Of a stretch of 64,000 nt of DNA, positions 4,154 through 18,652 are shown piece by piece. Each line of letters begins with the position of its first letter. Within the stretch, counting starts at the first letter, position 1. The position numbers were made by a program, and so were the translations under genes. A model generated the notes under the pieces. It was not told the DNA's origin. It did not search any database and saw only the letters and a list, made by a program, of their open reading frames with translations. This stretch comes from Acidimicrobiales bacterium (GTDB lineage: Bacteria; Actinomycetota; Acidimicrobiia; Acidimicrobiales; VFJN01): NCBI GenBank assembly GCA_036279475.1, contig DASUJB010000147.1, forward strand, positions 1,070 through 65,069, written 5' to 3'.

Positions 4154-4253
4154 GCTAGCGGCAGGGCCTGGGAAGCACCTGGGAGGGCCCTGGCGCGGCA
4201 CGCCTTGGCCGGTGGGCCGGCACCACCCTCCCCTCGGCGGCCCCGGACGTGCC

Positions 4254-4751: not shown

Positions 4752-4804
4752 CGCCCGAACCTACCGGCGCCGGCCGGGGGGCGAGCTCCCGGGGCGCCGG
4801 GCGG

Positions 4805-6796
4805 TCACTCCTCCGAGGGCTGGGCCTGCGCCCGCCGCCGGATCTCGTCGACCACCGCGGGATCGGCCAGGGTGGTGGTGTCGCCCAGGTCCCGGCCCTC
4901 GGCGACGTCACGCAACAGCCGTCGCATGATCTTGCCCGAGCGGGTCTTGGGCAGCTCCTCGGTGAAGACCACCAGCTTGGGTCGCGCGGTGGGCCCGATC
5001 TTCCGGGCCACGTGGCCGCGCAGCTCCTCCCCCAGCGCCGGGGTGGCATCGACGCCACCCCGCACGGTGACGAAGGCGACGATGGCCTGGCCGGTCAGCG
5101 GATCCGTGGCGCCGCAGACGGCGGACTCGGCCACGGCCGGGTGGTCGACCAGGGCCGACTCGACCTCGGTGGTGGAGATCCGATGGCCGGACACGTTCAT
5201 CACGTCGTCGACCCGGCCGAGCAGCCACAGGTAGCCCTCATCGTCCACCTTGCACCCGTCGCCGGCGAAGTAGCGGTCGCCGAACCGTGCCCAGTAGGTG
5301 TCGCGGTAGCGGTCGGGGTCGCCGTAGATGCCCCGGAGCATCGAGGGCCAGGGGCGGGTGAGCGTGAGGTAGCCGCCACCCTTCTCGACCCGGGCACCGT
5401 CGTTGTCGACCACCTCGGCAGCGATGCCGGGGAGCGGGAAGGTGGCCGACCCCGGCTTGAGGGTGGTGACGCCGGGCAGGGGCGCGATCATGATGGCGCC
5501 CGTCTCCGTCTGCCACCACGTGTCGACGATCGGGCACCGGCCCCCGCCGATGTGGGTGTGGTACCACATCCACGCCTCGGGGTTGATGGGCTCGCCCACC
5601 GATCCCAGCAGGCGGAGCTTGGACAGGTCGTGGCGCGCCGGCTCCTGCTCCCCCCACTTCATGAACGTGCGGATCGTGGTGGGGGCCGTGTACAGGATGG
5701 TGACCCCGTAGCGCTCGGCCACCTCCCACAGGCGGTCCTTGCCGGGGGTGTCCGGCGTGCCCTCGTAGATGACGCTGGTGGCACCGTTGGCCAGGGGGCC
5801 GTAGACGATGTAGCTGTGGCCCGTCACCCAGCCGATGTCCGCCGAGCACCAGTAGACGTCGGTCTCCGGCTGCAGGTCGAAGACGTACCGGTGGGTGAAG
5901 GCGACCTGGGTGAGGTAGCCACCGGTGGTGTGCATGATGCCCTTGGGCTTCGCCGTCGTGCCCGACGTGTAGAGCAGGTAGAGGAGGTCCTCGCTGTCCA
6001 TCCGCTCGGGCTCACACACCGGTGCGGCCTCGGCCATGAGGTCGTGGAACCACAGGTCGCGGCCGTCGGTCATGTCGACGGCCACGTCTGCGTCGGGGTG
6101 GCTGGACACCCGGTCGACCACCACGACGTGCTCGATCGACGGGGTGGAGGCCAGCGCCACGTCGGCCGTGGGCTTGAGCAGGTGGGCCTGGCCGCGTCGG
6201 AAGCCCCCGTCGGCGGTGACGAGCACCTTGCAGGCGGCATCGTTGATGCGGTCGACGAGCGAGTCGGCGGAGAACCCGCCGAAGACCACCGAGTGGGGGG
6301 CGCCGATCCGGGCGCAGGCCAGCATGGCCACCGGCAGCTCCGGGATCATCGGCATGTAGATGGCGACCCGGTCGCCCTTGCCGACGCCCAGCCCCTTCAG
6401 GGCGTTGGCGAAGCGCTGCACGTCGGCCAGGAGGTCGGCGTAGGTGACGGTGCGCCGGTCGCCGGGCTCCCCCTCCCAGTAGTAGGCGACACGGGCGCCG
6501 TGCCCCGCCTCGACGTGGCGGTCGAGGCAGTTGTACGCGACGTTGAGCGTGCCACCCAAGAACCACTTGGCGAACGGCAGGTCCCAGTCGAGGACGGTGT
6601 GCCAGTGGTCGTACCACGACACCAGCTCGGACGCCTGGCGTGCCCAGAAGCCCTGCCAGTCGGCTTCGGCCTCGTCGTAGATCCCCGGGTCCCTGACCAG
6701 GGCACGGGCCGCGAAGTCGGCCGGGGGCGGGAACGTGCGATCCTCGCTGAGGTAGTCCTCGATCGCCGCGCCGTCAGCCTGCGGATCGGATGGCAT
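4805..6796 (-). CDS. acs: acetyl-CoA synthetase (AMP-forming)
   Basis: The 1006-aa ORF 4805..7825 was trimmed to the ATG at 6796, giving 663 aa. The protein is Acs-like along its length (WYDHWHTVLDWDLPFAKWF, YTSGTTAKPKG, WWQTETG, PKTRSGKIMRR). Confidence 0.95.
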   Translation of the reverse strand: MPSDPQADGAAIEDYLSEDRTFPPPADFAARALVRDPGIYDEAEADWQGFWARQASELVSWYDHWHTVLDWDLPFAKWFLGGTLNVAYNCLDRHVEAGHGARVAYYWEGEPGDRRTVTYADLLADVQRFANALKGLGVGKGDRVAIYMPMIPELPVAMLACARIGAPHSVVFGGFSADSLVDRINDAACKVLVTADGGFRRGQAHLLKPTADVALASTPSIEHVVVVDRVSSHPDADVAVDMTDGRDLWFHDLMAEAAPVCEPERMDSEDLLYLLYTSGTTAKPKGIMHTTGGYLTQVAFTHRYVFDLQPETDVYWCSADIGWVTGHSYIVYGPLANGATSVIYEGTPDTPGKDRLWEVAERYGVTILYTAPTTIRTFMKWGEQEPARHDLSKLRLLGSVGEPINPEAWMWYHTHIGGGRCPIVDTWWQTETGAIMIAPLPGVTTLKPGSATFPLPGIAAEVVDNDGARVEKGGGYLTLTRPWPSMLRGIYGDPDRYRDTYWARFGDRYFAGDGCKVDDEGYLWLLGRVDDVMNVSGHRISTTEVESALVDHPAVAESAVCGATDPLTGQAIVAFVTVRGGVDATPALGEELRGHVARKIGPTARPKLVVFTEELPKTRSGKIMRRLLRDVAEGRDLGDTTTLADPAVVDEIRRRAQAQPSEE

Positions 6797-6833: not shown

Positions 6834-8033
6834 CTACCCGCCCTCGCCCGGGGCCTCGCCGGGCGCCCACTCGAGCACCCTGAAGCCGCCCAGGCCCCCC
6901 CGGTCGGTGAGGGCGGCGGCCTCGAGCACCCGGCTGCGGGCGGCCAGGGCCGCCAGGTCGCCGACGTGGGCGCGCTCCTGCCACGTCGACCTCGCCTCGC
7001 CCACCAGGTCGTCCAGGCCGTGCCGTGCCAACCAGTCGGCCTGGGACCGGTCGGAGGTGGGCGGCCGGACCAGCGCGAGCTGGTCGACCGCCACCTCGCA
7101 CGTGACGTCCTGGCGGCCGAGGTCGTCGAGCGGTCCGCCGGCACGGCCGTGCGCCCGGTAGGTCCGGAGCCACTCGCCCTGCGGCCGGGTCGCCATGTCG
7201 GCCGTGGTGGTGACGTAGTCCACGACCACCACCCGACCGCCGGCTCCGGCGACGGCCAGCGCCTCGCGCAACCAGGACCGGGCCGCCTCCTGCAGGGCCA
7301 CCCGTGCCCCCTCGGCCGCCACGGGGACCAGCCGATCGAGTGCCGCGGACCGGCGGGCGTCGAGGGGCACCGCCCTCTCCGCGAGGCGGGGCCCACCACG
7401 ACCGGTGGCCAGGTCGACCCGGACCTCGTCCCAACGATCCACCGACCGCTGGGCCAGGCCGAAGGGGAGGTCGTCGAGCAGCTCGTTGGCCAGCACCACC
7501 GCCGGTCCCGCCACCCGAGGCAGGTCGGCGAGGCTGACGCACAGCGGACCGGCGGGACCGCCGGCCACCGGCGATCCGGTGTCCGGATCGACGGGCGGGA
7601 AGGCCAGCGCCGGGTCCTCCACCGGGAGGTGGCGGGCGTGCAGCCGTCGCTGGGCCACCGACCGCTCGACCAGGACGTAGCGCAGGGCGGTGGCGCAGGC
7701 GGGCGCGGCCGCCAGGACCGTCCGTGCCAGCGTGCCCGGTCCGGCCCCGGCCTCGACGACCACGTACGGCGACGGCCGGCCGAGCTGGTACCACCACTGG
7801 TCGAGCGCTCGGGCCACCACGCCACCGAAGAGGGGGCCGACCTCCGGGCTGGTCAGGAAGTCGCCCGACCGGCCGCCGGCCCGGCCACCCCTCTCGTAGA
7901 AGCCGGCGCCGGGCTGGTACAGCGCCAGCTCGAGCACCCGGTCGAAGGGCAGCGGGCCGTGCCGCCGGATCTCGGCGGCGACCGCCGCCTCCACGCCGGA
8001 GACCGGCGGGTCGGGCACGCTCACCGGCGCCAC
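6834..8033 (-). CDS. class I SAM-dependent methyltransferase, NDUFAF7/MidA (DUF185) family
   Basis: 399 aa. LYQPGAGFYERGG ... SGDFLTSPEVGPLFGG ... VVEAGAGPGTLA matches the DUF185/MidA signature. It lies 76 bp downstream of nuoN of operon 1. Confidence 0.75.
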   Translation of the reverse strand: MAPVSVPDPPVSGVEAAVAAEIRRHGPLPFDRVLELALYQPGAGFYERGGRAGGRSGDFLTSPEVGPLFGGVVARALDQWWYQLGRPSPYVVVEAGAGPGTLARTVLAAAPACATALRYVLVERSVAQRRLHARHLPVEDPALAFPPVDPDTGSPVAGGPAGPLCVSLADLPRVAGPAVVLANELLDDLPFGLAQRSVDRWDEVRVDLATGRGGPRLAERAVPLDARRSAALDRLVPVAAEGARVALQEAARSWLREALAVAGAGGRVVVVDYVTTTADMATRPQGEWLRTYRAHGRAGGPLDDLGRQDVTCEVAVDQLALVRPPTSDRSQADWLARHGLDDLVGEARSTWQERAHVGDLAALAARSRVLEAAALTDRGGLGGFRVLEWAPGEAPGEGG

Positions 8034-8109
8034 CGGCCCGTGGGGGGAGCGGTGCCGGGAGCGGGCGCCACCGGCGCGGCCCCCGCCCTCCGGTGGCGGC
8101 CCCCGGCCG

Positions 8110-9621
8110 TCAGGGCGTCACGCCCGCCACGAAGTCGGCCATGTCGCCCAGCTCGGCCGCCCACTGGGTGACGCCGAAGGCCAACGTGAGGACGGCCGTG
8201 ATGGCCAGCGCCGCCGTCAACGACACCGGCAACCGCACGGGGGTGACGTCACCGTCGGGCGCAGGGTTCATCCACATCTCCTTGGCGACGTTGGCGTAGT
8301 ACGCCAGCGACACCACGGTGTTGACCGCCATCACCACGGCCAGGGCGTACCCCCACCCCGTGTCCGACTCGACCACCGCTCGGAAGGCGACGAACTTGGC
8401 CAGCCAACCGCCCAGGGGCGGGATGCCGGCCAGGGCAAACAGGAAGAGCGACATCAGGACGGCCAGGGACGGGGCGTACTCGAACAGCCCGCCGAACGTC
8501 GAGATGTCCGCGCTGCCCGTCTTGCGAGCCACCGCCATCACCACGGTGAAGGCACCGAGGTTCATGGCGGCGTAGATGAGCAGGTAGGTCACCACCGTGC
8601 TGAGGGTCGTGCCACCGATCTGGCCCACCACCGCCATGGGGGCGAGGATGAAGCCGGCCTGGGAGATCCCCGAGTAGGCCAGCATGCGCACCAGGTTCGT
8701 CTGGCGCAGCGCCACCACGTTGCCGACCGTCATCGAGCCCGCGGCCAGGACCCACATGAGCGGCCGGACGACCTCGGCCTGCTCGGCGAAGCCGATGACG
8801 ACGAGCTGCACCAGGGCCACGAACCCCGCGGCCTTGGAGGACACCGACAGGAAGGCGGTGACGGGCGTGGGCGCGCCCTCGTACGTGTCGGGTGCCCACG
8901 TGTGGAAGGGCACCGCCGACACCTTGAAGGCGAAGCCGGCGATCACGAACACGATGGCCAGGGTGATCACGGGGACGGAGCCGCCCGCGGTGCCGAGGGC
9001 CTCGCCGATGCCGCCGAGCCGGGTGGTACCCGCCACGCCGTACAGGAGCGACATCCCGTAGAGGAGCACACCCGTGGCGAACACCCCCATCAGGTAGTAC
9101 TTGACGCCGGCCTCGTTGCCCTTCCGGTCGCGCTTGCGCCAGCCGGCCAGGAGGTACGCGGGGACCGACAGGGTCTCGAGGGCGACGAAGATCGTGACGA
9201 GGTCGCGCGCCGACGCCATCACCGTCATCCCCAGGATGGACGACAGCAGCAGGAAGTAGTACTCGCCCTCCGCGTAGTCGCCCTCGGCGACGTAGTTGGT
9301 CGACAGCAGCACCGTGACGTACCCGGCCACGAGGAACAGGGCCTTGACCACGAGGGAGAAGTCGTCGACGGCGTAGGCGCCGCCGAACATCGTCCGGTCG
9401 GCGCCGTCGGCGGCCAGCGTGAGCACGGGGACGAGCGCGCCGAGCAGCCCGATCCCTGCCAGGGAGGGGAGCGCTCCCTTCCGGTCGTCCGGGAGGAAGA
9501 GGTCGGCCACCAGCACGAGGCACAGGACGCCCACGACGACCAGCTCGGGGGCGAGGGCGTGCCAGTCGATGTCGGGACGGGCGAAGCCGTCCTGCGACGC
9601 CCGGGCGAGGAGGGCCAGCAC
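8110..9621 (-). CDS. nuoN: NADH-quinone oxidoreductase subunit N (operon 1, 11-subunit type)
   Basis: 503-aa polytopic antiporter-like protein (VPFHTWAPDTYEGAPTPVTAF). GTG start at 9621, 6 nt after the nuoM stop. Confidence 0.9.
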   Translation of the reverse strand: MLALLARASQDGFARPDIDWHALAPELVVVGVLCLVLVADLFLPDDRKGALPSLAGIGLLGALVPVLTLAADGADRTMFGGAYAVDDFSLVVKALFLVAGYVTVLLSTNYVAEGDYAEGEYYFLLLSSILGMTVMASARDLVTIFVALETLSVPAYLLAGWRKRDRKGNEAGVKYYLMGVFATGVLLYGMSLLYGVAGTTRLGGIGEALGTAGGSVPVITLAIVFVIAGFAFKVSAVPFHTWAPDTYEGAPTPVTAFLSVSSKAAGFVALVQLVVIGFAEQAEVVRPLMWVLAAGSMTVGNVVALRQTNLVRMLAYSGISQAGFILAPMAVVGQIGGTTLSTVVTYLLIYAAMNLGAFTVVMAVARKTGSADISTFGGLFEYAPSLAVLMSLFLFALAGIPPLGGWLAKFVAFRAVVESDTGWGYALAVVMAVNTVVSLAYYANVAKEMWMNPAPDGDVTPVRLPVSLTAALAITAVLTLAFGVTQWAAELGDMADFVAGVTP

Positions 9622-9627
9622 GGCGGA

Positions 9628-11175
9628 TCAGCCGCCCACCGCGGCGGCGATGGACTGGGCCACGGAGGTGAGCTGGTCGTCCCCGACGCGGAACACCAGG
9701 TTCGGGTAGACGCCGACGACGAGGATCAGCACGAGGAGCGGCACCCAGGCGATCCACTCCGGCAGCGTGACGTCAGGGATCTCCTCGTCCTCGAACTCCT
9801 CGGTGGGCGTGCCGAAGGCCGTGCGCTGGTACAGCCACAGCAGGTAGCCGGCGGCGAACACCGTGCCCAGGGCGGCGACGACCATGTAGACGCGGAACAG
9901 CTCCTCGCTGAGGCCGGCGCCCGGCTGGTAGGTCGAGAGGATCGCCGGGAACTCGCCCCAGAAGCCGGCGAGGCCCGGCAGGCCCAGCGAGGCCATGGCC
10001 GTGAAGCCCAAGATCCAGCCCAGCCGCGGCGCCTTCACGAGGATGCCCCCCAGCCGGCGGATCTCCAGCGTGTGGTAGCGCTCCTTCACGGAGCCGGCGA
10101 TGAAGAAGAGCATGCCGGTGATGAGCCCGTGGGCGACCATGCCCATCAGGGCGGCGTTGAGCCCGAAGTCGGTGAGCGTGGCCACCCCGAGCATGGTGAA
10201 GCCCATGTGGGCGACCGACGAGAAGGCGATGAGCCGCTTCATGTCCGTCTGCGCCAGGCAGGCCAGGGCTCCGTAGATGATGCCGATGACGGCCAGCAGG
10301 CCGATCCACGGAGCCCACGACACCGCGGCCTCGGGCAGGATGGGCAGGGCGACCCGGACGAACCCGTAGGTGCCGAGCTTGAGGAGCACCGCCGCCAGGA
10401 TGACCGAGCCCACGGTGGGCGCCTGGGTGTGGGCGTCGGGCAGCCAGGTGTGGAACGGGAAGATCGGCACCTTGATGCCGAACCCCATGAACATCCCGCC
10501 GAAGATCAGCAGCTCGGTGGTGTGCGAGACGTTGCCGCGGGCCACCCCCGCGGCCAGGTCGCTCATGACGAACGAATCGCTGCCCGCCGCGAAGAAGAGC
10601 GCGAGGAAGCTCACGATCATCAGGGCCGACCCGAACAGCGTGAACAGGAAGAACTTGATGGCCGCGTACTGGCGCTGCTCACCGCCCCACACGCCGATGA
10701 GGAAGTACATCGGCAACAGCACGACCTCGAAGAACACGAAGAAGAGGATGAGGTCCTGGGCCACGAACGTGCCGAGCATGCCGGTGTGCAGCACGAGCAG
10801 CAGGATGAGGAAGGCCTTGGGGTTCCGTGGCTCGGGGAAGTGGTTCCACGAGTACACGATGCACAGCGGCACGATCAGCAGCGTCAGGGCGATCAACGGG
10901 ATCGACAGGCCGTCGATCCCGATCGCGTACCGGCTGTGGATCACGTCGATCCACGACTCGTCCACCACGAACTGCAGGCGGTCCGTGGCGCCGTAGTCGA
11001 AGTCGGCGATGACGGCGGCTCCGACACCCGCCGTGCCCAACGACACGACGAGGGCCAGCCACTTGTGCGCCGACTCCAGGGTCCTGGGCACGAGCAGCAT
11101 CACCAGGGCTCCTGCCAGAGGCAGGAACACCATGAGCGACAGGCCCCAGTCGGTCAGGAACTCGTTGTTGTCCAT
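9628..11175 (-). CDS. nuoM: NADH-quinone oxidoreductase subunit M (operon 1)
   Basis: 515 aa, with FPFHTWLPDAHTQAPTVGSVILA and an NuoM-type topology. ATG start at 11175. Confidence 0.9.
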   Translation of the reverse strand: MDNNEFLTDWGLSLMVFLPLAGALVMLLVPRTLESAHKWLALVVSLGTAGVGAAVIADFDYGATDRLQFVVDESWIDVIHSRYAIGIDGLSIPLIALTLLIVPLCIVYSWNHFPEPRNPKAFLILLLVLHTGMLGTFVAQDLILFFVFFEVVLLPMYFLIGVWGGEQRQYAAIKFFLFTLFGSALMIVSFLALFFAAGSDSFVMSDLAAGVARGNVSHTTELLIFGGMFMGFGIKVPIFPFHTWLPDAHTQAPTVGSVILAAVLLKLGTYGFVRVALPILPEAAVSWAPWIGLLAVIGIIYGALACLAQTDMKRLIAFSSVAHMGFTMLGVATLTDFGLNAALMGMVAHGLITGMLFFIAGSVKERYHTLEIRRLGGILVKAPRLGWILGFTAMASLGLPGLAGFWGEFPAILSTYQPGAGLSEELFRVYMVVAALGTVFAAGYLLWLYQRTAFGTPTEEFEDEEIPDVTLPEWIAWVPLLVLILVVGVYPNLVFRVGDDQLTSVAQSIAAAVGG

Positions 11176-11196
11176 CGTGAACCTTGGCGGTAGCCG

Positions 11197-13377
11197 TCAG
11201 ACGAAGATGATGATGACGCCGGCGAAGAGCGCGGCGGCACCGAAGAGGAGCGCCCCGTACTGCTGCACCTTGCCGGAGGTGAGTTGGCGGAAGACCTGGC
11301 CGCTGCTGTTGGCCGCAGCCGCCGACCCCGTGATGGCACCGTCGACGACCTGCTGGTCGATCCGGGTGTACACGAAGCGGCCGACGGCCGTGGCCCCCCG
11401 GCCGGCCCCGTTGACCACGCCGTCGATGACGTGCTGGTTGACCCAGTACGCGGCCCGGGCGACGGGACCCTTGACCGCACCGACGATCACGTCGGTGTAC
11501 AGCCAGTCGAGGTAGTACTTGTTCTCGAGCACCTGGCGGCCGACCCGGGCCAGGCGGTTGCGCTGCGTGATCCCGTGGGGACCGAGGCCCCGCCAGTACC
11601 ACAGGTAGGCGACGCCGATGCCGAGGACGGCCACGATCGTGGCCGTGACGGCGATCCCGGGGGAGAACTCCGGGTGGCTGAAGTTGGCCGTCGGGAAGTA
11701 CGGGGCCTTCGGCTCGTAGAAGTGCTCGAACCGCAGGTCGAGCCCGTCACCGGGCCCCACCGCCGCCGGCAGGTTGGCGAAGCCGGCGGTCACCCCTAGG
11801 ACGGCCAGCACCCACAGCGGGACCGTGAGGCGGGGGCCCGATTCGTGTGGGTGACCGTGGCCGCGGTACTCGCCGAAGAACGTCAGGTACACGACCCGGG
11901 TCATGTAGGCCGCCGTCATCAGGGCCCCGACGATGCCCACGACCATGAACGCGGTGTAGCCGCCCCCGCCGCCGAGCTGGCTGGCACCTGCGAGGATCTC
12001 GTCCTTCGACCAGAACCCCGCCAGGGGGAAGATGCCGACGAGGGCCCCCGTGGCGATGAGGAAGGTCCGGTAGGTGTGCGGCATCCACCGCCGCAGACCC
12101 CCCATGTCCTTGCGCATGTCGAAGCTGTGCACGGCGTGGCTGACCGACCCGGCGCCCAGGAACAGGCAGGCCTTGAAGAAGGCGTGGGTGAAGAGGTGGA
12201 AGAACGCTGCCGTCCAGGCTCCCACGCCCAGCGCCATCACCATGTAGCCGAGCTGCGACACGGTCGAGTAGGCGAGGACCTTCTTGATGTCGTTCTGGAC
12301 GAACGCCAGCCCGGCACCGCCGAGCACCGTGACCGCGCCCACCACGGCGAGCAGGTTCACGCTGGACACGCCGATGCTCAGGCCCTCGAAGAACACGCCG
12401 TAGAGGCGGCCCACCATGTAGACGCCGGCGACCACCATCGTGGCCGCGTGGATGAGGGCCGACACGGGCGTGGGTCCGGCCATGGCGTCGGGCAGCCACG
12501 TGTGGAGGATGAACTGCCCCGACTTCGACATGACCGCGGCCACCAGCGAGCACGACGCCACCAGCAGGGCGAGGTGGCTGATGTCGCCCGACAGCGCCTG
12601 GGAGTTGATGTCGACGATGTCGAAGGTCTGCCCGGCTGCGAAGTACAGGGTGATGACGCCGACGATCAGGCCAACGTCCCCCACGCGGTTGGTGATGAAC
12701 GCCTTGAGGGCGGCGTCGCTGTTCGCCTTCTCCTCCCACCAGTGGCCGATGAGCGCGAACGAGCACAGGCCCACCAGCTCCCAGCACACGAGGAGCTGCA
12801 GCGTCGACGTGGACATGACCAGGCCGAGCATCGACGCCGTGAACAGCGACAGGAAGGCGAAGAAGTGGGTGTAGCGCCGGTCGCCGTGGACGTAGTCGGT
12901 GGAGTACACGTGCACCAGGAGGGACACGAGCGTGACGACGACCAGCATCATCGCGGCCGGGCCGTCCAGCAGCATCCCGGCCTCGACGTCGACCCCGCCG
13001 ATCTCGAACCAGGTCCAGGTCCGCTGGACGGGCGGGACCTCGTGCTCCTCCTCCTCGGCCGCGGCGGCGACCTCTCCGCCCTGCCCACCGGTGCCCTCGA
13101 CCCCTCCGGCGGTGGTGGCCTCGGCCAGCTCGCCCTCGCCCCCGAGGGCGTGACCCGTACCCTCCCCCGCCTCCTCGGCGGTGGCCTCGTGGGCGGCCGG
13201 CGGGTCCTCGACGTGGTCGAACCACTGGACGTTGGTGGCGATCGCCAGCACGAAGGCGACGGCGACGGCGGCGATGCCGACCTCGCTGCCCTTCCTGGGC
13301 AGGCGCTTGCCGAAGAAGAGGATCAGGAAGAACGAGGCGGCGGGGACGAGGGGGATGATCCAGGCGTTGTCGAGCAC
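11197..13377 (-). CDS. nuoL: NADH-quinone oxidoreductase subunit L (operon 1), with an acidic/Gly-rich insertion near the N-terminus
   Basis: 726 aa, with HTWLPDAMAGPTPVSALIHAATMV and a C-terminal lateral-helix region. GTG start at 13377. Confidence 0.9.
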   Translation of the reverse strand: MLDNAWIIPLVPAASFFLILFFGKRLPRKGSEVGIAAVAVAFVLAIATNVQWFDHVEDPPAAHEATAEEAGEGTGHALGGEGELAEATTAGGVEGTGGQGGEVAAAAEEEEHEVPPVQRTWTWFEIGGVDVEAGMLLDGPAAMMLVVVTLVSLLVHVYSTDYVHGDRRYTHFFAFLSLFTASMLGLVMSTSTLQLLVCWELVGLCSFALIGHWWEEKANSDAALKAFITNRVGDVGLIVGVITLYFAAGQTFDIVDINSQALSGDISHLALLVASCSLVAAVMSKSGQFILHTWLPDAMAGPTPVSALIHAATMVVAGVYMVGRLYGVFFEGLSIGVSSVNLLAVVGAVTVLGGAGLAFVQNDIKKVLAYSTVSQLGYMVMALGVGAWTAAFFHLFTHAFFKACLFLGAGSVSHAVHSFDMRKDMGGLRRWMPHTYRTFLIATGALVGIFPLAGFWSKDEILAGASQLGGGGGYTAFMVVGIVGALMTAAYMTRVVYLTFFGEYRGHGHPHESGPRLTVPLWVLAVLGVTAGFANLPAAVGPGDGLDLRFEHFYEPKAPYFPTANFSHPEFSPGIAVTATIVAVLGIGVAYLWYWRGLGPHGITQRNRLARVGRQVLENKYYLDWLYTDVIVGAVKGPVARAAYWVNQHVIDGVVNGAGRGATAVGRFVYTRIDQQVVDGAITGSAAAANSSGQVFRQLTSGKVQQYGALLFGAAALFAGVIIIFV

Positions 13378-13386
13378 GATTCCCCG

Positions 13387-13695
13387 CTATCCCCTCATCG
13401 AATCGATCTCGTCGAGGTCAACGCTCGACCGGTTCCGGTAGATGATCAGCACCATGGCCAGGCCGACGCCGACCTCTGCGGCGGCGACCGCGATGACGAA
13501 GAGGGCGAACACCGCCCCCGTGATGTCGTTGCCCATCGCCCCGAATGCAAGCAGGTTGATGTTCACCGCGTTCAGGATGAGCTCGATCGACATGAGCACG
13601 AGCACCGTGTTCTTCCGAGCGATCACCCCGTACACGCCGGTGCAGAAGAGGATCGCCCCCAGTAGGAGGAACTGGTTGAGCAGCAACTCGTCCAT
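13387..13695 (-). CDS. nuoK: NADH-quinone oxidoreductase subunit K (operon 1)
   Basis: 102 aa with three TM helices (SIELILNAVN, AAAEVGVGLA). Its ATG overlaps the nuoJ stop as ATGA at 13695-13697. Confidence 0.9.
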   Translation of the reverse strand: MDELLLNQFLLLGAILFCTGVYGVIARKNTVLVLMSIELILNAVNINLLAFGAMGNDITGAVFALFVIAVAAAEVGVGLAMVLIIYRNRSSVDLDEIDSMRG

Positions 13696-14207
13696 CAGCG
13701 GTCCTTCCGGGCGATGACGATGGCCCCGATCAGGGCCGCCAGCAGCAGGACCGAGATCGCCTCGAAGGGGATCAGGAACTGGCTGAAGATGGCGTCACCG
13801 ATGGTGGACGTGTTGCTGCCGTCGACGGTGGCGATCTGGCGGTCGTTGGGCAGCGGGTCGTCGCCGAAGTTTTCGATCAGGGCGTAGCCCATCACGCCGG
13901 CGAGCAGGGCGGCAGTGACGACGCCCGCCCACCAGTGGCTGTTCGTCATCTGCTCGTCGCGCCCGATGCGGCTGCGGGTGAGCATGATGCCGAACAGCAT
14001 CAGGACCATGATCGCACCGATGTACACGAGGACCTGCGTGACGGCCACGAACTCGGCGGCCAGGAGGATGAACTGCGCCGCCACGCCGGCGAACACGACG
14101 ATCAACGCCAACGCCGATCGCACGACGTTGCGGTTGGTCACCACCACGACGGAAGCTGCCACCATGACCGCGGCGATGGCGTAGAAGAAGACGTTCTCGG
14201 CGACCAT
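13695..14207 (-). CDS. nuoJ: NADH-quinone oxidoreductase subunit J (operon 1)
   Basis: ORF 13695..14534 trimmed to the ATG at 14207, giving 170 aa ([14 protein letters not shown]...). It overlaps the nuoI stop as ATGA. Confidence 0.85.
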   Translation of the reverse strand: MVAENVFFYAIAAVMVAASVVVVTNRNVVRSALALIVVFAGVAAQFILLAAEFVAVTQVLVYIGAIMVLMLFGIMLTRSRIGRDEQMTNSHWWAGVVTAALLAGVMGYALIENFGDDPLPNDRQIATVDGSNTSTIGDAIFSQFLIPFEAISVLLLAALIGAIVIARKDR

Positions 14208-14761
14208 CAGCGGGGCACCTTGCGAACCTTCTGCTCCGACCCCGCCTCGTACGGCTCGAAGTCCGGGACGGTCTCCATCCACTGACCGAGGCGCTCCTTG
14301 TCGTGGAGGAGGTCGGCCAGGCGCAGCTCGGAGTACTCGTACTCCGGGCTCCAGAACAGCGCGTCGAACGGGCAGACCTCGACGCAGATGCCGCAGTACA
14401 TGCAGAGGGCGTAGTCGATGTCGAAGCGGTCCAGCTCGTTGACCGTGCGGGGCCGACCACCGGGGCGGCGGGGCGGGGCGGTGGCCTTGTGGCCCTCGAT
14501 GTAGATGCACCAGTCGGGGCAGCTGCGGGCGCACAGCATGCAGACCGTGCAGTTGTCCTCCTTGAGGGCGATCACCCCCCGGGCCCGCGGCGGCGGGGTC
14601 TCCTTCTCGTGGGGGTACTGGACGGTGGCCGCCCCCTGGGAGGGAGCGGGGACGAGCGTGCGGACGCCCCGCGAGGGGAACATCGTCTTCGCCATCGTCT
14701 TGAGCGTGACGCCCAGGCCCTTCACGAGGCCCGGCGCCTTCGGCGTGGGGATCTCCGCCAC
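14207..14761 (-). CDS. nuoI: NADH-quinone oxidoreductase subunit I (operon 1), 2x[4Fe-4S]
   Basis: 184 aa with two ferredoxin motifs, [12 protein letters not shown] and [12 protein letters not shown]. Confidence 0.9.
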
Positions 14762-15798
14762 TACCAGGCCACCTTCAGAGCCATGGTCGCCAGGATGTTG
14801 ACCAGCGACAGCGGGATGAGGAACTTCCAGGCGAGCTGCTGGAGCTGATCCTCACGGAAGCGTGGGTAGGTGAACCGCACCCAGAAGACCACGAACGACA
14901 CCAGCATGATCTTCACCAGGAGCACGATCGGGCCCACCACGTTCATGTAGTCGGCGTCGAGGTCCATCCCCGGCAGCGCCCAGCCACCGAGGAACAGCGT
15001 GGCAGCCACCGCCGAGAACGCGCCCACGCTGGCGAACTCGGCGATGAAGAACAGCAGGAACCGCATGCCCGAGTACTCGGTCATGTAGCCGGACACCAGC
15101 TCCGACTCGGCGATCGGCATGTCGAAGGGTGCCTGGGTCAGCTCCGCCTGCATCGACACGAGGAAGATGAAGAAGCCCACGAACTGGGTGATGATGTACG
15201 GGTTGCCGATGCCGGAGAACCCGAAGATCTCGCCGTCGGCCTGGGCGGCGACGATGCCCTGCATGTTGAGCGTGCCGGCCTGGATGACCACGCCGACGAC
15301 GGCCAGGACCATCGGCAGCTCGTAGGCGATGAGCTGCCCTGCCGCCCGGAGGCCGCCCAGGAGCGAGTACTTGTTGGCCGACGCCCACCCGGCGAGGAGG
15401 ATGCCGAGCACGGAGATCGACGAGACGGCCAGCACGTAGAAGATGCCGACGTCCAGGTCGGTGAACCAGGCGTCAGGGCCGAACGGCACCGCCGCCAGGA
15501 TGAGGAAGACGGCCAGGACCACCACGTACGGCGCCATGGCGAACAACCGCCGGTCGGCCCGCCACGGGATGATGTCCTCCTTCTGGATCCACTTGCCCAC
15601 CTCGGCCAGGAGCTGCATCGAGCCGTAGGGACCGGCCTCCATGGGCCCGAGCCGGCTCTGCATGAAGCTCATCATCTTGAACAGGAAGACGTAGACGAGG
15701 GTGCCCGCCAACAGCAGCACCGCTGCCAGCACGCCGACCGATCGCAGCACCGTCTGCTGCCAGTAGGCCAACTCGATCGCGAGCAGCGAGGCCGTCAT
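14761..15798 (-). CDS. nuoH: NADH-quinone oxidoreductase subunit H (operon 1)
   Basis: ORF 14761..15879 trimmed to the ATG at 15798, giving 345 aa. That ATG overlaps the nuoD stop (ATGA at 15795-15798), so nuoH directly follows nuoD. Confidence 0.9.
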
Positions 15799-16967
15799 CG
15801 GTCGATGTCTCCCAGGATGAAGTACAGGCTGGCGAGGATCGTGATGATGTCGGGCACGTAGACCCCGCGCAGCAGCCACGGAACGATGGAGACGTTCGAG
15901 AAGCTGGCCGAGCGGATCTTGACCCGGAACGGACCCAGGTCGCCCTTGCTCACCAGGTAGTAGCCCGTGACGCCGAGGGGGTTCTCGGTGGCGACGTAGG
16001 CCTCACCCGCCGGCACCTTGATGATCCGAGGCACCTTGGCCATGATCGGCCCGCCCGGCAGGCCGTCGCAGAGCTGGTCGACGATGCCCGTCGCCTCGCG
16101 AGTCTCCTGGAGGCGCACCCAGCACCGGGCGAAGCTGTCCCCGTCGGGGTGCGTCCACACCCGCCAGTCGACCTCCCGGTGGGCCAGGCCGACGTCGCCG
16201 TCACGCCGAAGGTCCCAGTCGACCCCCGTGGCCCGCAGGTTGGCCCCCGTGAGCCCGTAGGACAGCGCCACCTCGGGAGGGATGACGCCCACGCCACGGG
16301 TGCGGGCCTGGAAGATCTCGTTGCCGAAGAGGAGCGCCTCGACCTCGTCGCAGAAGTCCCTGATCCGTGCCATCACGGCCTTGGTGTCCGCCACCCATCC
16401 CTTGGGCAGGTCGTCCCTCAGCCCTCCGATGCGGTCGAAGTTGGGATGGAACCGCCCGCCCGTCACCGCCTCGATCTGGTCGAGGACGTGCTCGCGGTCG
16501 CGGAAGGCGTAGAAGGCCGGGGTGACGGCACCCAGCTGCACCCCCAGGTCACCGAGGAAGAGGACGATGTTGGCGATCCTGGCCATCTCGAACAGGATCG
16601 TGCGGATGTGACGGGCCCGAGGTGGCGCCTCGATCTCCATCAGCCGCTCGGCGGCCAGGATGAAGGGCACCTCGTTGGCGAAGCTGCCCAACCAGTCGAT
16701 GCGGTTGACGAGCGTGGTGATCTGGGGATAGGTGCGGACCTCGGTGAGCTTCTCGTAGCCCCGGTGCATGTAGCCCGGCACCACGTCGGCCCACACCACC
16801 TGCTCGCCGTCGAGCTTGGCGGTGATGCGGAGCGTCCCGTGGGTGGCCGGATGCTGGGGGCCGAGGTTGATGACCATGCCCTCGTCGGTCTCGAGCTCCA
16901 CGTTGACCCGGCCCTCGGCGGCTTGGGCGTCGACGTAGGCGAGCTGCTGGCGCTCCGTCACCGTCAC
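15795..16967 (-). CDS. nuoD: NADH-quinone oxidoreductase subunit D (operon 1)
   Basis: ORF 15795..17171 trimmed to the GTG at 16967, giving 390 aa. It overlaps the nuoC stop as GTGA. It has GPQHPATHGTLR and HRGYEKL, and ends ILGDIDR. Confidence 0.9.
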   Translation of the reverse strand: MTVTERQQLAYVDAQAAEGRVNVELETDEGMVINLGPQHPATHGTLRITAKLDGEQVVWADVVPGYMHRGYEKLTEVRTYPQITTLVNRIDWLGSFANEVPFILAAERLMEIEAPPRARHIRTILFEMARIANIVLFLGDLGVQLGAVTPAFYAFRDREHVLDQIEAVTGGRFHPNFDRIGGLRDDLPKGWVADTKAVMARIRDFCDEVEALLFGNEIFQARTRGVGVIPPEVALSYGLTGANLRATGVDWDLRRDGDVGLAHREVDWRVWTHPDGDSFARCWVRLQETREATGIVDQLCDGLPGGPIMAKVPRIIKVPAGEAYVATENPLGVTGYYLVSKGDLGPFRVKIRSASFSNVSIVPWLLRGVYVPDIITILASLYFILGDIDR

Positions 16968-17665
16968 TCGGCGACCTCCTCGGTCCGGCCGTCGCCCGAC
17001 GGAGGCTCGTCGGGCATCGGCTCCACGTCGACGATGCCCGGCCACGGCTTCACCAGCCGGGCCAGCAGCGGGAAGTCCTTGCGGAGAGGGTTCCCCTCGA
17101 AGCCGCTCGGAAGGTAGATGTGGCGCAGGCCGGGATGCCCCTCGAAGGTGATGCCGAACATCTCCCAGCACTCACGCTCGTGCCAGCTGGCCCCGCTGAA
17201 CAGCGGCACGAGGCTGGCGATGCGCAGGTCGTCGTCGGGGACGTCCGCCTTGAGGACGACGTTGAGGTGCGCTTCTTCGTGGCGGCGGACGTTGGCGAGG
17301 CGGCAGACCACCTGGAACCGCGTGTCGCCCCCGGCGTACCCGGTCTCGAAGGGACCTTCCGGCAGGGAGGGGGCCGCCCCCTCGAGGGCGGCGTCCTCGT
17401 AGCGACCCCACGGTGACGGCGCCCAGTCGATGGCGGACAGGAACTCGAAGAAGGTGCAGCCCAGCTGGTACTTGGCCGCCTCGGCGGCGGCCGTCCACGC
17501 CGACCGATCCACCCGGAGCCACGAGCCGTGGCCGGGCTGGACGTGGCTGCCCAGGACGGCGTCGCCCAAGGCGTCGGTGAGGGTGTCGACGACCCCCTGA
17601 CGTGCCTCGTCGAGCTGGGTCCCGCCAGCCTCGCCCGCCGGGACCTCGGTGGTGTCCGCCATCAC
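16964..17665 (-). CDS. nuoC: NADH-quinone oxidoreductase subunit C (operon 1)
   Basis: 233 aa, with [20 protein letters not shown] and NPLRKDFPL. The GTG at 17665 overlaps the nuoB stop; an ATG at 17662 is an alternative. Confidence 0.85.
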
Positions 17666-18162
17666 TGCGCCACCAACGGGTCGCCCCGCCAGCGCTCGGC
17701 CATGTCCTCCCGGCCGATGCGCTGCTGGAGCAGGACGATGCCCTCGAGCAGGGCCTCCGGCCGGGGTGGGCAGCCCGGCACGAAGACGTCGACGGGGATG
17801 ACCTGGTCGACGCCCTTCGTCACCGAGTAGCTGTCCCAGTAGGGACCGCCGCAGTTGGCGCAGGAACCCATGGAGATGACGTACTTGGGATCGGCCATCT
17901 GCTCGTAGAGCCGCTTGATGGCAGGGACCATCTTGTCGGTCACCGTGCCGGAGATGATCACCACGTCGGCCTGGCGGGGGCTCGACGGGAGGGGGATGAC
18001 CCCCAGTCGCATCACGTCATAGCGGGGCGACGCGAAGGCGGCGCCCATCTCGATGGCACAGCAGGCCAGGCCCCACTGGTACGCCCAGAGGCTGTACTTG
18101 CGAGCCGTGTTGAGCAGGGAGGTGAGCGGCTTGGGCAGCTTGCCGCTCTCGACGAGACCCAT
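17662..18162 (-). CDS. nuoB: NADH-quinone oxidoreductase subunit B (operon 1), N2 cluster ligands intact
   Basis: ORF 17662..18288 trimmed to the ATG at 18162, giving 166 aa. The ligand motifs [19 protein letters not shown] and PGCPP are all present. Confidence 0.9.
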
Positions 18163-18178
18163 CAGCCGACGTCCTGTC

Positions 18179-18571
18179 TCAGATCCAGCGGAGGACCTTC
18201 TTCTTCCACGCGTAGAGCAGCCCGAGGGCGAGGACAGCGATGAAGATGCCCATCTCCGTGAACCCGAACCACCCGTAAGCCTCGGCACGGGTGGCGAAGG
18301 GGAAGACGAACACCGCCTCGACGTCGAACAGCACGAACAGCAGAGCGAACAGGTAGTAGCGCACCTGTGTCTGGCCCCACATCGACCCGGCAGGATCGAC
18401 GCCCGACTCGTAGTTGACGTACTTCTCGGCCTGCGGGCGTACCGGGCGCACGAGGCGACCGAGGCCCAGGATCGTGCCCACCAGCGCGATCGCCACGCCC
18501 GCGAAGACGCCGACGGTGAGATACGACCGGAGGAGGTCCGACACGGGGGCGAGACTAGTGATCGCCTGCAC
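18179..18571 (-). CDS. nuoA: NADH-quinone oxidoreductase subunit A (operon 1)
   Basis: The C-terminal 120 aa of ORF 18179..18613 are NuoA-like ([24 protein letters not shown]). The start is ambiguous among GTG 18571, GTG 18544 and the ORF start at 18613. Confidence 0.8.
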
Positions 18572-18652
18572 GAGGGGCCAAAGCTGCCCCGGGGCGCCCC
18601 GACCGCAGGTCAAGCAGGACCCGGGCGGGGGTCGGCCGAGCCGCCGCTGCCC

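What the first reader, a model, noticed from the sequence alone, without database searches (positions are those of the whole stretch)
6834..8033. NDUFAF7/MidA-family methyltransferase immediately downstream of the EFG-less nuo operon
Seen in sequence: a 399-aa DUF185-type SAM methyltransferase (GDFLTSPE, EAGAGPGTLA) starts 76 bp after nuoN of operon 1 on the same strand.

Established knowledge: the mitochondrial homologue NDUFAF7 (MidA) dimethylates an arginine of NDUFS2, the NuoD homologue, and is needed for early complex I assembly.

Both NuoD paralogues here keep the GPQHP(A/S)THG(T/V)LR segment. I believe this segment contains the modified arginine, but I cannot verify the residue from memory.

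A bacterial MidA homologue linked to a nuo operon would be a direct hint that NuoD arginine methylation also operates here, possibly for only one of the two enzymes.
Basis: partly seen in the sequence, partly recalled or inferred. Interest (0 to 1): 0.65.

Follow-up and report, generated by a model that had tools for sequence, protein, structure and literature searches.

The report
Operon-linked MidA/NDUFAF7-type methyltransferase gene
A real gene for a MidA/NDUFAF7-type methyltransferase sits as a conserved twelfth gene behind an 11-subunit complex I-like operon in Acidimicrobiia, and only that enzyme, not the standard complex I encoded next to it, carries the arginine this family methylates in mitochondria.

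Summary
ORF 6834-8033 (-) is a real 399-aa gene of Pfam Methyltransf_28 (MidA/NDUFAF7 family), 76 bp after nuoN of an nuoEFG-less operon. Its predicted fold matches only MidA-family structures.

One detail is wrong. The dimethylated arginine of NDUFS2 lies in the HRGxE motif (KCDPHIGLLHRGTEK), not in the GPQHP...LR segment.

At that site the two NuoD paralogues differ:
- NuoD1, from the adjacent 11-subunit operon, has HRG, and its NuoB1 has Thr. This is the mitochondrial/Paracoccus arrangement.
- NuoD2, from the 14-subunit operon, has HTG, and NuoB2 carries the compensating Arg. This is the Thermus/Mycobacterium arrangement.

The nuoN-methyltransferase adjacency holds in 64 of 71 Acidimicrobiia genome loci (median gap 44 bp), down to about 40% methyltransferase identity. 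It also holds in 11 of 12 loci picked through NuoD1 instead. The downstream acs gene is much less tightly linked.

The most likely function is methylation of NuoD1 Arg137 beside cluster N2, as a maturation factor dedicated to the 11-subunit enzyme. Methylation itself is inferred, not shown. NuoD arginine dimethylation is already known in Paracoccus, so this is a new member of a known kind in a new, informative operon context.

The parts
6834..8033 (-). MidA/NDUFAF7-family (Pfam Methyltransf_28, former DUF185/COG1565) SAM-dependent methyltransferase gene, 399 aa from GTG 8033 (alternative GTG starts at 8024 and 8018). Family motifs: GDFLTSPE (codons from 7865), SAM motif I EAGAGPGTLA (from 7754), ANELLDDLP (from 7490), VVDYV (D272 codon 7218-7220), GRQDVTCEV (from 7118).
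   Evidence: PF02636, 96.4 bits; GC3 0.93; profile against 5ZTZ E=1.7e-35, 4F3N E=6e-44; AF2 pLDDT 93.8; Foldseek TM 0.70-0.78 to MidA-family structures only; only copy in the window.
8034..8109 (-). 76-bp spacer between the nuoN stop and the methyltransferase start. No promoter-like or terminator-like site, and no structure beyond shuffled controls. Compatible with read-through from nuoN.
   Evidence: 0 promoters, 0 terminators; fold z = 0.12. In relatives the equivalent gap has a median of 44 bp and sometimes overlaps by 4 bp.
8110..18613 (-). 11-gene complex I-like operon without nuoEFG, in ORF limits: nuoA 18179-18613, nuoB1 17662-18288, nuoC 16964-17665, nuoD1 15795-16967 (ORF open to 17171), nuoH 14761-15879, nuoI 14207-14761, nuoJ 13695-14534, nuoK 13387-13695, nuoL 11197-13377, nuoM 9628-11175, nuoN 8110-9621.
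   Evidence: a Pfam/NCBIfam assignment for each subunit. nuoD abuts nuoH, so there is no room for E, F, G.
16761..16763 (-). CGG codon for NuoD1 Arg137 (ORF numbering; Arg69 from the probable GTG start at 16967), in GYMH-R-GYEK. This is the position of NDUFS2 Arg-85 (bovine/human mature), Yarrowia R121 and Thermus Nqo4 T64. It is the proposed methylation site.
   Evidence: Peptide from Carroll 2013. HRGxE motif from Hameedi 2021. Invariant in 44/44 linked NuoD of genome loci and in all metagenome NuoD1 relatives.
17944..17946 (-). ACG codon for NuoB1 Thr115 in [10 protein letters not shown], the position of Thermus Nqo6 Arg83 and Yarrowia NDUFS7 Thr122. Thr here is the mitochondrial-type partner of an Arg on NuoD.
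   Evidence: 19/19 readable linked NuoB have SGT/AGT. The intersubunit switch is described in PMC8042128.
35186..35188 (-). Contrast: ACG codon for NuoD2 Thr95 (GYLH-T-GMEK) in the 14-subunit operon. There is no arginine to methylate at this site.
   Evidence: (aligned with Thermus Nqo4 ylhTgfek and M. smegmatis 8E9G_D ylhTgiek).
36376..36378 (-). Contrast: CGG codon for NuoB2 Arg80 ([10 protein letters not shown]), equivalent to Thermus Nqo6 Arg83. This is the compensating arginine of the Thermus/Mycobacterium-type N2 site.
4805..6796 (-). Acetyl-CoA synthetase gene (acs, 663 aa, ATG at 6796), 37 bp downstream of the methyltransferase stop. It is a frequent but loosely linked neighbour and is not judged part of the unit.
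   Evidence: NF001208, 981 bits; acs within 300 bp in only 16/65 loci; absent in L085.

Best explanation
The ORF encodes an active SAM-dependent protein methyltransferase of the MidA/NDUFAF7 family. It is carried as the last, twelfth gene of an 11-subunit complex I-like operon that lacks the NADH-oxidising module.

Proposed mechanism:
1. It is probably transcribed with nuoA-N.
2. It methylates the guanidino group of NuoD1 Arg137 (motif HRGYE, Arg followed by Gly). [quoted passage not shown]
3. It acts before or while NuoD1 joins NuoB1, so it serves as a maturation/assembly factor dedicated to this isoenzyme.
4. The 14-subunit complex I encoded immediately upstream cannot be modified at this site. 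It has Thr there and supplies the equivalent arginine from NuoB2.

Shown here: family and fold membership, conserved operon linkage, and the reciprocal Arg/Thr pattern in the two enzymes.

Inferred: the substrate, the site, the type of methylation (symmetric dimethylation, by analogy with NDUFS2), co-transcription, and the role in assembly or N2 tuning.
For: **Family.**
- Pfam PF02636 is the only hit, at 96.4 bits.
- The clade profile aligns over the whole catalytic domain of Dictyostelium MidA 5ZTZ (E=1.7e-35), keeping GDF-T-PE, E-G-G-G-GTL, ANE-LD-LP, -DY- and PG-QD-T.
- The AF2 model (pLDDT 93.8) matches only MidA-family structures: 4G67, 5ZU0, 5ZTZ, 4F3N, 1ZKD, at TM 0.70-0.78 and E about 1e-23 to 1e-20. 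The next hits are generic methyltransferases at TM about 0.3.

**Linkage.**
- In 80 Acidimicrobiia genome loci (methyltransferase 49-75% identical), the nuoN stop lies within 300 bp of the methyltransferase in 64 of the 71 loci with enough upstream sequence. The median gap is 44 bp, and some gaps are 4-bp overlaps.
- acs lies within 300 bp in only 16 of 65 loci.
- The arrangement persists at 40-42% methyltransferase identity (L083-L085). This includes L085, where a 5-kb foreign island splits nuoL from nuoM and acs is absent.
- Reciprocal test, anchored on NuoD1 in metagenomes: 11 of 12 evaluable Acidimicrobiia-type operons are followed by the gene.

**Target.**
- NuoD1 has HRG at the NDUFS2 Arg-85 position, and NuoD2 has HTG.
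- NuoB1 has Thr and NuoB2 has Arg at the Nqo6-R83 position.
- The Arg is invariant in 44/44 linked NuoD.

**Precedent.**
- NDUFAF7 methylates this arginine in human cells (PMC3829151).
- The modification exists in Paracoccus Nqo4.

**Junction.** No promoter or terminator signal lies between nuoN and the gene.
Against: - No direct evidence of methylation, of co-transcription, or of any interaction.
- The clade is only 22-27% identical to the solved MidA-family proteins, so substrate specificity could have diverged.
- An Arg at this site does not by itself predict methylation. E. coli keeps the Arg unmodified.
- More distant 11-subunit operons with Arg in NuoD have no adjacent Methyltransf_28 gene (L138, L150, L152, L159, L164).
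- One Acidimicrobiia-type operon (L121) is followed by a glycosylase gene instead.
- All linked loci belong to one class, so part of the conservation may be inherited synteny.
- NuoD1 lacks the canonical quinone-site Tyr87 and Asp139. The enzyme is atypical, and the role of its N2 environment is unknown.
Confidence: 0.6

Rival explanations
1. The methyltransferase does serve the 11-subunit complex, but it modifies a different residue or subunit than NuoD1 Arg137. Candidates are another Arg or Lys of NuoD1, NuoB1, NuoC or NuoI, or a cofactor-related step.
For: - The operon linkage points to the complex, not to a particular residue.
- The clade is distant from characterised MidA (22-27% identity).
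- NuoD1 is atypical: Y87W, D139Q and a 25-residue deletion.
Against: - The only characterised substrate of the family is exactly this arginine.
- The Arg-Gly context is kept and invariant.
- The Arg/Thr contrast between the linked and unlinked enzymes fits the site.
Confidence: 0.2
2. The adjacency is inherited gene order without a functional tie. The enzyme has an unrelated substrate, for example Acs or another cellular protein, and merely sits between nuo and acs.
For: - All linked loci come from one class.
- acs is often nearby.
- L121 shows that the operon can exist without the gene next to it.
- Proteobacterial family members are not known to be nuo-linked (my own knowledge, not tested here).
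Against: - The nuoN-methyltransferase gap stays tight, within 300 bp in 64/71 loci with a median of 44 bp. Meanwhile the other flank is repeatedly rearranged, with acs within 300 bp in only 16/65 loci and TetR or HTH genes inserted.
- In L085 the downstream genes are all different, yet the methyltransferase still follows nuoN by 51 bp.
- The methyltransferase has diverged to 40% identity while keeping its position.
Confidence: 0.1
3. The protein is a nucleic-acid (DNA) methyltransferase, as recently suggested for Wolbachia MidA.
For: PMC12455994 reports 166 m4C/m6A calls in E. coli expressing Wolbachia MidA. The authors themselves call this preliminary.
Against: - That report found no sequence specificity and very few sites.
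- No DNA-binding domain is detected here.
- The fold matches arginine methyltransferase MidA.
- A position at the end of a respiratory operon is not expected for a DNA methylase.
Confidence: 0.03
4. The protein acts as a non-catalytic assembly chaperone for NuoD1. It binds NuoD1 without transferring methyl groups.
For: NDUFAF7/MidA binds NDUFS2 directly.
Against: - SAM motif I and the acidic family motifs are nearly invariant across the clade: G96, A97, G98, G100, N183, E184, D187, D272.
- In Dictyostelium a methyltransferase-deficient mutant does not rescue.
Confidence: 0.05

Closest known systems
NDUFAF7 (human) / MidA (Dictyostelium discoideum), mitochondrial protein arginine methyltransferase and complex I assembly factor
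   Same: - Same Pfam family (PF02636).
- Same full-length fold: TM 0.73-0.74 to 5ZU0/5ZTZ.
- Same conserved motifs.
- The cognate NuoD/NDUFS2 carries the HRGxE arginine followed by Gly, with Thr on the NuoB/NDUFS7 side.
   Different: - Only about 22% identical.
- Encoded in the operon of its presumed substrate rather than as an unlinked nuclear gene.
- The partner enzyme has 11 subunits, lacks the NADH module and has a non-canonical quinone site (Tyr87 to Trp).
- Activity is untested.
Symmetric dimethylarginine in Nqo4 of Paracoccus denitrificans complex I (Carroll et al. 2013), with alpha-proteobacterial NDUFAF7 homologues inferred as the enzyme (Shahul Hameed et al. 2018)
   Same: A bacterial NuoD with Arg at the Arg-85 position, in an organism that has a MidA-family gene.
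   Different: - Paracoccus has a canonical 14-subunit enzyme.
- A nuo-linked methyltransferase gene is not reported for it in the papers read here.
- The present lineage is Actinomycetota, outside the 'proteobacterial origin' scenario.
Bacterial DUF185/COG1565 structures 4F3N/4G67 (Burkholderia thailandensis) and 1ZKD (Rhodopseudomonas palustris)
   Same: Best sequence and fold matches: profile E=6e-44 and 7e-36, TM 0.70-0.78.
   Different: They are structural-genomics entries with no assigned substrate, and they are 23-27% identical.
11-subunit complex I-like enzymes lacking NuoEFG (Moparthi and Hagerhall 2011), and the tandem full plus EFG-less nuo operons of 'Ca. Actinomarinales' (PMC7771536)
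   Same: The same nuoABCDHIJKLMN gene set, and the same tandem layout with a 14-gene operon, in an Acidimicrobiia-related lineage.
   Different: Neither paper, nor Spero et al. 2015, mentions a methyltransferase gene at the end of the operon.
Thermus thermophilus / Mycobacterium smegmatis complex I N2 site (Nqo4 Thr64 with Nqo6 Arg83)
   Same: The window's 14-subunit operon has exactly this arrangement.
   Different: It is the contrast case. It offers no arginine on NuoD and has no linked methyltransferase.

Membership tests
Methyltransf_28 / MidA / NDUFAF7 family | Significant match to the family profile (Pfam PF02636) and to no competing methyltransferase family | tested here: met
   96.4 bits against a cutoff of 23.3, the only family reported; no NCBIfam model matches, so there is no competing assignment.
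Methyltransf_28 / MidA / NDUFAF7 family | Full-length fold of MidA: Rossmann-type SAM domain plus the family-specific N- and C-terminal elements | tested here: met
   AF2 pLDDT 93.8. Foldseek TM 0.70-0.78 over about 390-408 columns to 4G67, 5ZU0, 5ZTZ, 4F3N and 1ZKD. The next hits have TM about 0.3.
Methyltransf_28 / MidA / NDUFAF7 family | SAM-binding motif I (E/D-x-G-x-G-x-G) and the family motifs GDF-T-PE, ANE-LD-LP, -DY-, PG-x-D-T conserved | tested here: met
   All motifs are present, nearly invariant in the 35-sequence clade alignment, and aligned with the same motifs of 5ZTZ, 4F3N and 1ZKD.
Methyltransf_28 / MidA / NDUFAF7 family | Cognate NuoD/NDUFS2 carries the target arginine (HRGxE, Arg followed by Gly) | tested here: met
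   - NuoD1 has GYMHRGYEK, invariant in 44/44 linked NuoD.
- Not met for NuoD2 (GYLHTGMEK), which is why only the 11-subunit enzyme qualifies.
Methyltransf_28 / MidA / NDUFAF7 family | Catalyses (symmetric di)methylation of that arginine | not testable with these tools
   Needs mass spectrometry or an enzyme assay.
Methyltransf_28 / MidA / NDUFAF7 family | Required for assembly or activity of the complex | not testable with these tools
   Needs genetics in a cultured Acidimicrobiia strain or heterologous reconstitution.
Methyltransf_28 / MidA / NDUFAF7 family | Orthology with the alpha-proteobacterial/mitochondrial branch, rather than a paralogous subfamily | tested here: inconclusive
   - The protein is roughly equidistant (22-27% identity) from Burkholderia, Rhodopseudomonas and Dictyostelium members.
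- In the representative search only 286 cluster representatives reach E<=1e-30, against 8,340 at E<=0.001.
- No family phylogeny was built.
11-subunit complex I-like enzyme (for the linked operon) | nuoA, B, C, D, H, I, J, K, L, M, N present and contiguous; nuoE, F, G absent | tested here: met
   The same holds in the related loci.
11-subunit complex I-like enzyme (for the linked operon) | Cysteine ligands of cluster N2 in NuoB | tested here: met
   Read from the NuoB1 sequence: [22 protein letters not shown].
Canonical quinone-reducing complex I (for the linked operon) | Quinone-site residues Tyr87, His38 and Asp139 (Thermus Nqo4 numbering) | tested here: not met
   His38 is kept, Tyr87 is Trp, Asp139 is Gln, and 25 residues are deleted. 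Trp is present in 43/43 linked NuoD.

The most novel reading that the evidence does not exclude
Arginine methylation beside cluster N2 is not a proteobacterial/mitochondrial invention. It would be an older trait of NuoD-type proteins that Actinomycetota use specifically for non-canonical enzymes.

In Acidimicrobiia, a MidA-type enzyme would be a dedicated, operon-encoded maturation factor of an NADH-module-less complex I-like enzyme with an altered quinone site.

In other actinobacteria, a second, divergent Methyltransf_28 gene is clustered with an orphan NuoD-like protein (L141, L144, L147, L155, L157). That would mean MidA-family enzymes and NuoD-family proteins form a recurrent enzyme-substrate pair, even outside complex I.
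Probability: 0.3. Interest if true: 0.65.

Novelty: new member of a known kind. Interest (0 to 1): 0.5.

Why it matters
The role of NDUFS2 arginine dimethylation is still unresolved. It could serve assembly, as a key between NDUFS2 and NDUFS7, or it could tune the N2 potential (PMC8042128).

- **A natural internal control.** These bacteria encode two complex I-type enzymes side by side. One has the arginine on NuoD and a methyltransferase gene in its own operon. The other has the arginine moved to NuoB and no such gene.
- **Independent support from gene context.** This suggests that MidA-family enzymes act on NuoD in bacteria outside the alpha-proteobacteria.
- **A new operon component.** It adds a conserved twelfth gene to an 11-subunit complex I-like operon whose electron donor and physiology are unknown.
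- **A simple test.** The prediction can be checked by mass spectrometry in cultured Acidimicrobiia or in E. coli co-expression.

Tried and rejected
- **GPQHP...LR segment as the methylation site:** rejected. The modified peptide is KCDPHIGLLHRGTEK.
- **Functional tie to acs:** rejected as the main link. Adjacency statistics are 16/65 within 300 bp against 64/71 for nuoN, and L085 lacks acs.
- **Promoter/terminator scan and RNA fold of the 76-bp junction:** nothing found. This is uninformative beyond 'no obvious break', since the scans cover sigma-70 and U-tract signals only.
- **NCBIfam:** no model for the methyltransferase.
- **MidA structure paper (Cell Rep 2018):** not held in the library. 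Catalytic residues were therefore judged from motif conservation, not from the authors' mutagenesis.
- **Literature search on DUF185, COG1565 and Methyltransf_28:** mostly unrelated DUF185x hits. Searches for NDUFAF7 with actinobacterial terms and for nuoEFG with methyltransferase gave no report of the linkage. The library misses most subscription journals, so absence is not proof.
- **The listing of cluster members for distant representatives:** almost no taxon names.
- **Extension of the nuoN-methyltransferase linkage to more distant 11-subunit operons:** it does not extend to L138, L150, L152, L159 or L164.
- **One Pfam call failed on wrong coordinates.**
- **Whole-genome co-occurrence of the gene with the 11-subunit operon:** could not be tested, because only +/-10 kb around matches is accessible.
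Full report
**1. Observation**

The window is about 72% G+C, so long chance ORFs occur on every strand. ORF 6834-8033 (-) is nevertheless a real gene.
- Its third-position GC is 0.93, against 0.58 at second positions.
- It translates to 399 aa containing GDFLTSPE and EAGAGPGTLA.
- It matches Pfam PF02636 (Methyltransf_28, former DUF185) at 96.4 bits against a 23.3-bit cutoff, with no competing family.
- It has more than 4,500 homologues, many named 'SAM-dependent MidA family methyltransferase' or 'NDUFAF7' by JGI.
- It is the only family member in the window.

It starts 76 bp after the stop of nuoN (8110-9621) on the same strand. In-frame GTGs at 8024 and 8018 are alternative starts, and the nearest homologue is 396 aa.

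The upstream genes are nuoA-B-C-D-H-I-J-K-L-M-N, with nuoD abutting nuoH, so nuoE, F and G are absent. A complete operon with nuoE, F and G lies further upstream on the same strand, at about 21.0-37.1 kb. An acetyl-CoA synthetase gene follows the methyltransferase after 37 bp. The organism belongs to class Acidimicrobiia, judging from the names of the closest relatives.

**2. Family and fold**

- A single-sequence PDB search finds the two uncharacterised bacterial DUF185 structures (4F3N, 1ZKD) and Dictyostelium MidA (5ZTZ).
- A profile of 35 clade members aligns with the whole catalytic domain of MidA (E=1.7e-35) and with 4F3N (E=6e-44). It shares the GDF-T-PE, E-G-G-G-GTL, ANE-LD-LP, -DY- and PG-QD-T motifs.
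- An AlphaFold2 model is confident (pLDDT 93.8, pTM 0.91).
- Foldseek against the PDB returns only MidA-family structures as strong matches (TM 0.70-0.78, E about 1e-23 to 1e-20). It then drops to generic class I methyltransferases (TM about 0.3).

Membership of the MidA/NDUFAF7 family is therefore established at sequence and fold level. Identity to characterised members is only 22-27%, and orthology with the mitochondrial branch was not resolved.

**3. The arginine**

Both paralogues do keep that segment, but it is the wrong place.

What the literature says:
- Carroll et al. 2013 identified symmetric dimethyl-Arg-85 in the bovine peptide KCDPHIGLLHRGTEK. They found the modification in human, Pichia and Paracoccus denitrificans enzymes. 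It was absent in E. coli although the Arg is kept, and Thermus has Thr at the site (PMC3750175).
- Hameedi et al. 2021 call this the HRGXE motif. They describe an 'intersubunit switch': where Thermus Nqo4 has Thr, Nqo6 Arg83 fills the same space, whereas Yarrowia NDUFS7 has Thr there (PMC8042128).

What the window shows:

| Operon | NuoD at the Arg-85 site | NuoB at the Nqo6-R83 site | Arrangement |
|---|---|---|---|
| 11-subunit (EFG-less), next to the methyltransferase | NuoD1 GYMH-R-GYEK (Arg137, codon 16761-16763) | NuoB1 [10 protein letters not shown] | mitochondrial / Paracoccus |
| 14-subunit (full) | NuoD2 GYLH-T-GMEK | NuoB2 [10 protein letters not shown] | Thermus / Mycobacterium |

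Alignments to solved chains confirm the equivalences. NuoD2 aligns with Thermus Nqo4 and M. smegmatis NuoD, both with Thr. NuoB2 aligns with Thermus Nqo6 and M. smegmatis NuoB, both with Arg.

So the enzyme encoded next to the methyltransferase has the mitochondrial arrangement that NDUFAF7 acts on. The standard complex I of the same genome offers no arginine at that site.

**4. Is the adjacency conserved?**

*Genome loci chosen through the methyltransferase.* A scan of one genome per species with a diverse clade alignment returned 80 loci. All were Acidimicrobiia, including Microthrixaceae, Iamiaceae, Acidimicrobiaceae, Aquihabitans and Rhabdothermincola, with the methyltransferase 49-75% identical.

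| Adjacency | Loci with enough sequence | Within 300 bp | Median gap |
|---|---|---|---|
| nuoN stop to methyltransferase | 71 (at least 1.7 kb upstream) | 64 | 44 bp, several 4-bp overlaps |
| methyltransferase stop to acs | 65 (at least 2.5 kb downstream) | 16 | about 920 bp |

On the acs side, TetR or HTH genes and other inserts are common. In all these loci nuoD runs into nuoH. The linked NuoD carries GYMHRGYEK in 44 of 44 cases, and the linked NuoB carries SGT/AGT in 19 of 19 readable cases.

*More distant representatives.* Three representatives at 40-42% identity still show nuoA-N followed by the methyltransferase (L083-L085). In L085 a 5-kb PLDc/AIPR island splits nuoL from nuoM and the downstream genes are unrelated. 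The methyltransferase still follows nuoN by 51 bp.

*Reciprocal test, anchored on NuoD1 in metagenomes.* This gave 80 loci at 91-41% identity.
- Of 12 Acidimicrobiia-type operons (71% or more) that extend past nuoN, 11 are followed by the gene.
- L121 is followed by an fpg/nei-type glycosylase and an SDR gene instead.
- More distant 11-subunit operons that also have Arg in NuoD (L138, L150, L152, L159, L164) have no Methyltransf_28 gene within reach.

The linkage is thus a trait of the Acidimicrobiia clade, not of all 11-subunit enzymes.

*The junction.* The 76-bp junction shows no sigma-70-like promoter, no intrinsic terminator and no structure beyond shuffled controls. That is compatible with co-transcription but does not show it.

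**5. Mechanism**

The best-supported reading (confidence about 0.6) is that the protein is an active arginine methyltransferase dedicated to the 11-subunit enzyme. It would modify NuoD1 Arg137 beside cluster N2, before or while NuoD1 pairs with NuoB1. This is analogous to NDUFAF7 acting on NDUFS2 early in complex I assembly.

- Shown: family and fold, the conserved operon position, and the reciprocal Arg/Thr pattern.
- Inferred: substrate, site, symmetric dimethylation, co-transcription and physiological role.

Rivals:
- Another residue or subunit of the same complex (about 0.2).
- Inherited synteny with an unrelated substrate (about 0.1).
- A non-catalytic chaperone (about 0.05). The invariant SAM and acidic motifs argue against it.
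- A DNA methyltransferase, as tentatively proposed for Wolbachia MidA (about 0.03).

**6. Comparison with what is known, and novelty**

Already known:
- NuoD arginine dimethylation in a bacterium (Paracoccus).
- Alpha-proteobacterial NDUFAF7 homologues are inferred to perform it.
- The 11-subunit complex I-like enzyme is a known class found in actinobacteria.
- The tandem arrangement of a full and an EFG-less nuo operon has been described in 'Ca. Actinomarinales'.

Not found in the papers searched (the library lacks most subscription journals):
- The MidA-family gene as a conserved last gene of this operon.
- The observation that the two co-resident enzymes differ in where the N2-proximal arginine sits.

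I rate this a new member of a known kind, in a new and informative genomic context.

**7. Other observations**

- **NuoD1 is atypical.** Thermus Tyr87, the quinone ligand, is Trp in 43 of 43 linked NuoD. Asp139 is mostly Gln. A 25-residue segment is missing. His38 and the NuoB N2 cysteines are kept.
- **A second context exists.** Metagenome loci L141, L144, L147, L155 and L157 lie in an actinobacterial DUF2520-folP-ftsH neighbourhood. They carry an orphan NuoD-like gene (GYMHRGAEK, no other nuo genes) with a divergent Methyltransf_28 gene 1.4-3.4 kb upstream on the same strand. This may be an independent methyltransferase-NuoD pairing, or only shared synteny. It was not pursued further.

Noticed in passing
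L155:6926-11101 (+); also L141, L144, L147, L157: In a different actinobacterial neighbourhood (DUF2520, folP, ftsH; GC about 68%), an orphan NuoD-like gene has no other nuo genes nearby. It is 388 aa, matches Complex1_49kDa at 224 bits, and carries GYMHRGAEK and NRHDW. A divergent Methyltransf_28 gene lies 1.4-3.4 kb upstream on the same strand (Pfam 63.8 bits; GDFxTSPE replaced by RNFRTSAH). In L155 the genes in between are CMD, CMD and SDR. This may be a second, independent methyltransferase-NuoD pairing.
   Followed up: partly
window 15795-16967 (-), Trp160 codon 16692-16694: NuoD1 of the 11-subunit operon lacks canonical quinone-site residues. Thermus Nqo4 Tyr87 is Trp (43/43 linked NuoD in relatives), Asp139 is Gln, and about 25 residues (Thermus TPPPRHLLETSMEAVIYHFKHYTEG) are deleted. 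His38 is kept. The electron acceptor chemistry of this enzyme may differ from standard complex I.
   Followed up: partly
window 8110-37127 (-); L089, L091, L094, L115, L118 and others: The 14-gene and 11-gene nuo operons lie in tandem on one strand. They are separated here by a sigma-70-like gene (19642-20871) and an ORF without Pfam match (18653-19645). The tandem layout recurs in metagenome relatives, with a NuoN2-type gene about 3 kb upstream of NuoD1. It was reported for 'Ca. Actinomarinales', where a heliorhodopsin gene sits between the operons (PMC7771536).
   Followed up: partly
L085:1742-6408: A roughly 5-kb insertion lies between nuoL and nuoM of the 11-subunit operon. It carries PLDc_2 and AIPR (abortive-infection-type) genes and several unknown ORFs, which looks like a defence island inside a respiratory operon. 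The operon continues with nuoM, nuoN and the methyltransferase.
   Followed up: no
L121:17419-20858: This is the only Acidimicrobiia-type 11-subunit operon (NuoD1 78% identical, Arg and Trp kept) whose nuoN is followed not by the methyltransferase but by an fpg/nei-type DNA glycosylase and an SDR gene. Whether the methyltransferase is elsewhere in that genome is unknown.
   Followed up: partly
L001 compared with the window (and the table generally): The methyltransferase evolves much faster than the Nuo subunits it accompanies. In L001, NuoD1 is 96% and NuoH 93% identical to the window, but the methyltransferase only 73%.
   Followed up: no
window 3299-6796 (-); L001, L002, L083, L084: The downstream neighbourhood recurs loosely: acs, sometimes a GNAT acetyltransferase (the usual Acs regulator), HAD_PNKP phosphatase (4254-4751), M48 peptidase (3299-4201) and YajQ. 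A TetR or HTH regulator is often inserted between the methyltransferase and acs.
   Followed up: no
L010 and L066: Two different Methyltransf_28 copies (68% and 57% identical to the query) come from the same metagenome bin (SMAG_U10409). This is either a mixed bin or two paralogues in one genome.
   Followed up: no
window 16968-17171 (-): The mechanical nuoD1 ORF (458 aa) has an Arg/Pro-rich 68-residue N-terminal extension that overlaps nuoC. Homology starts near the GTG at 16967, so the extension is most likely a high-GC ORF artefact.
   Followed up: partly
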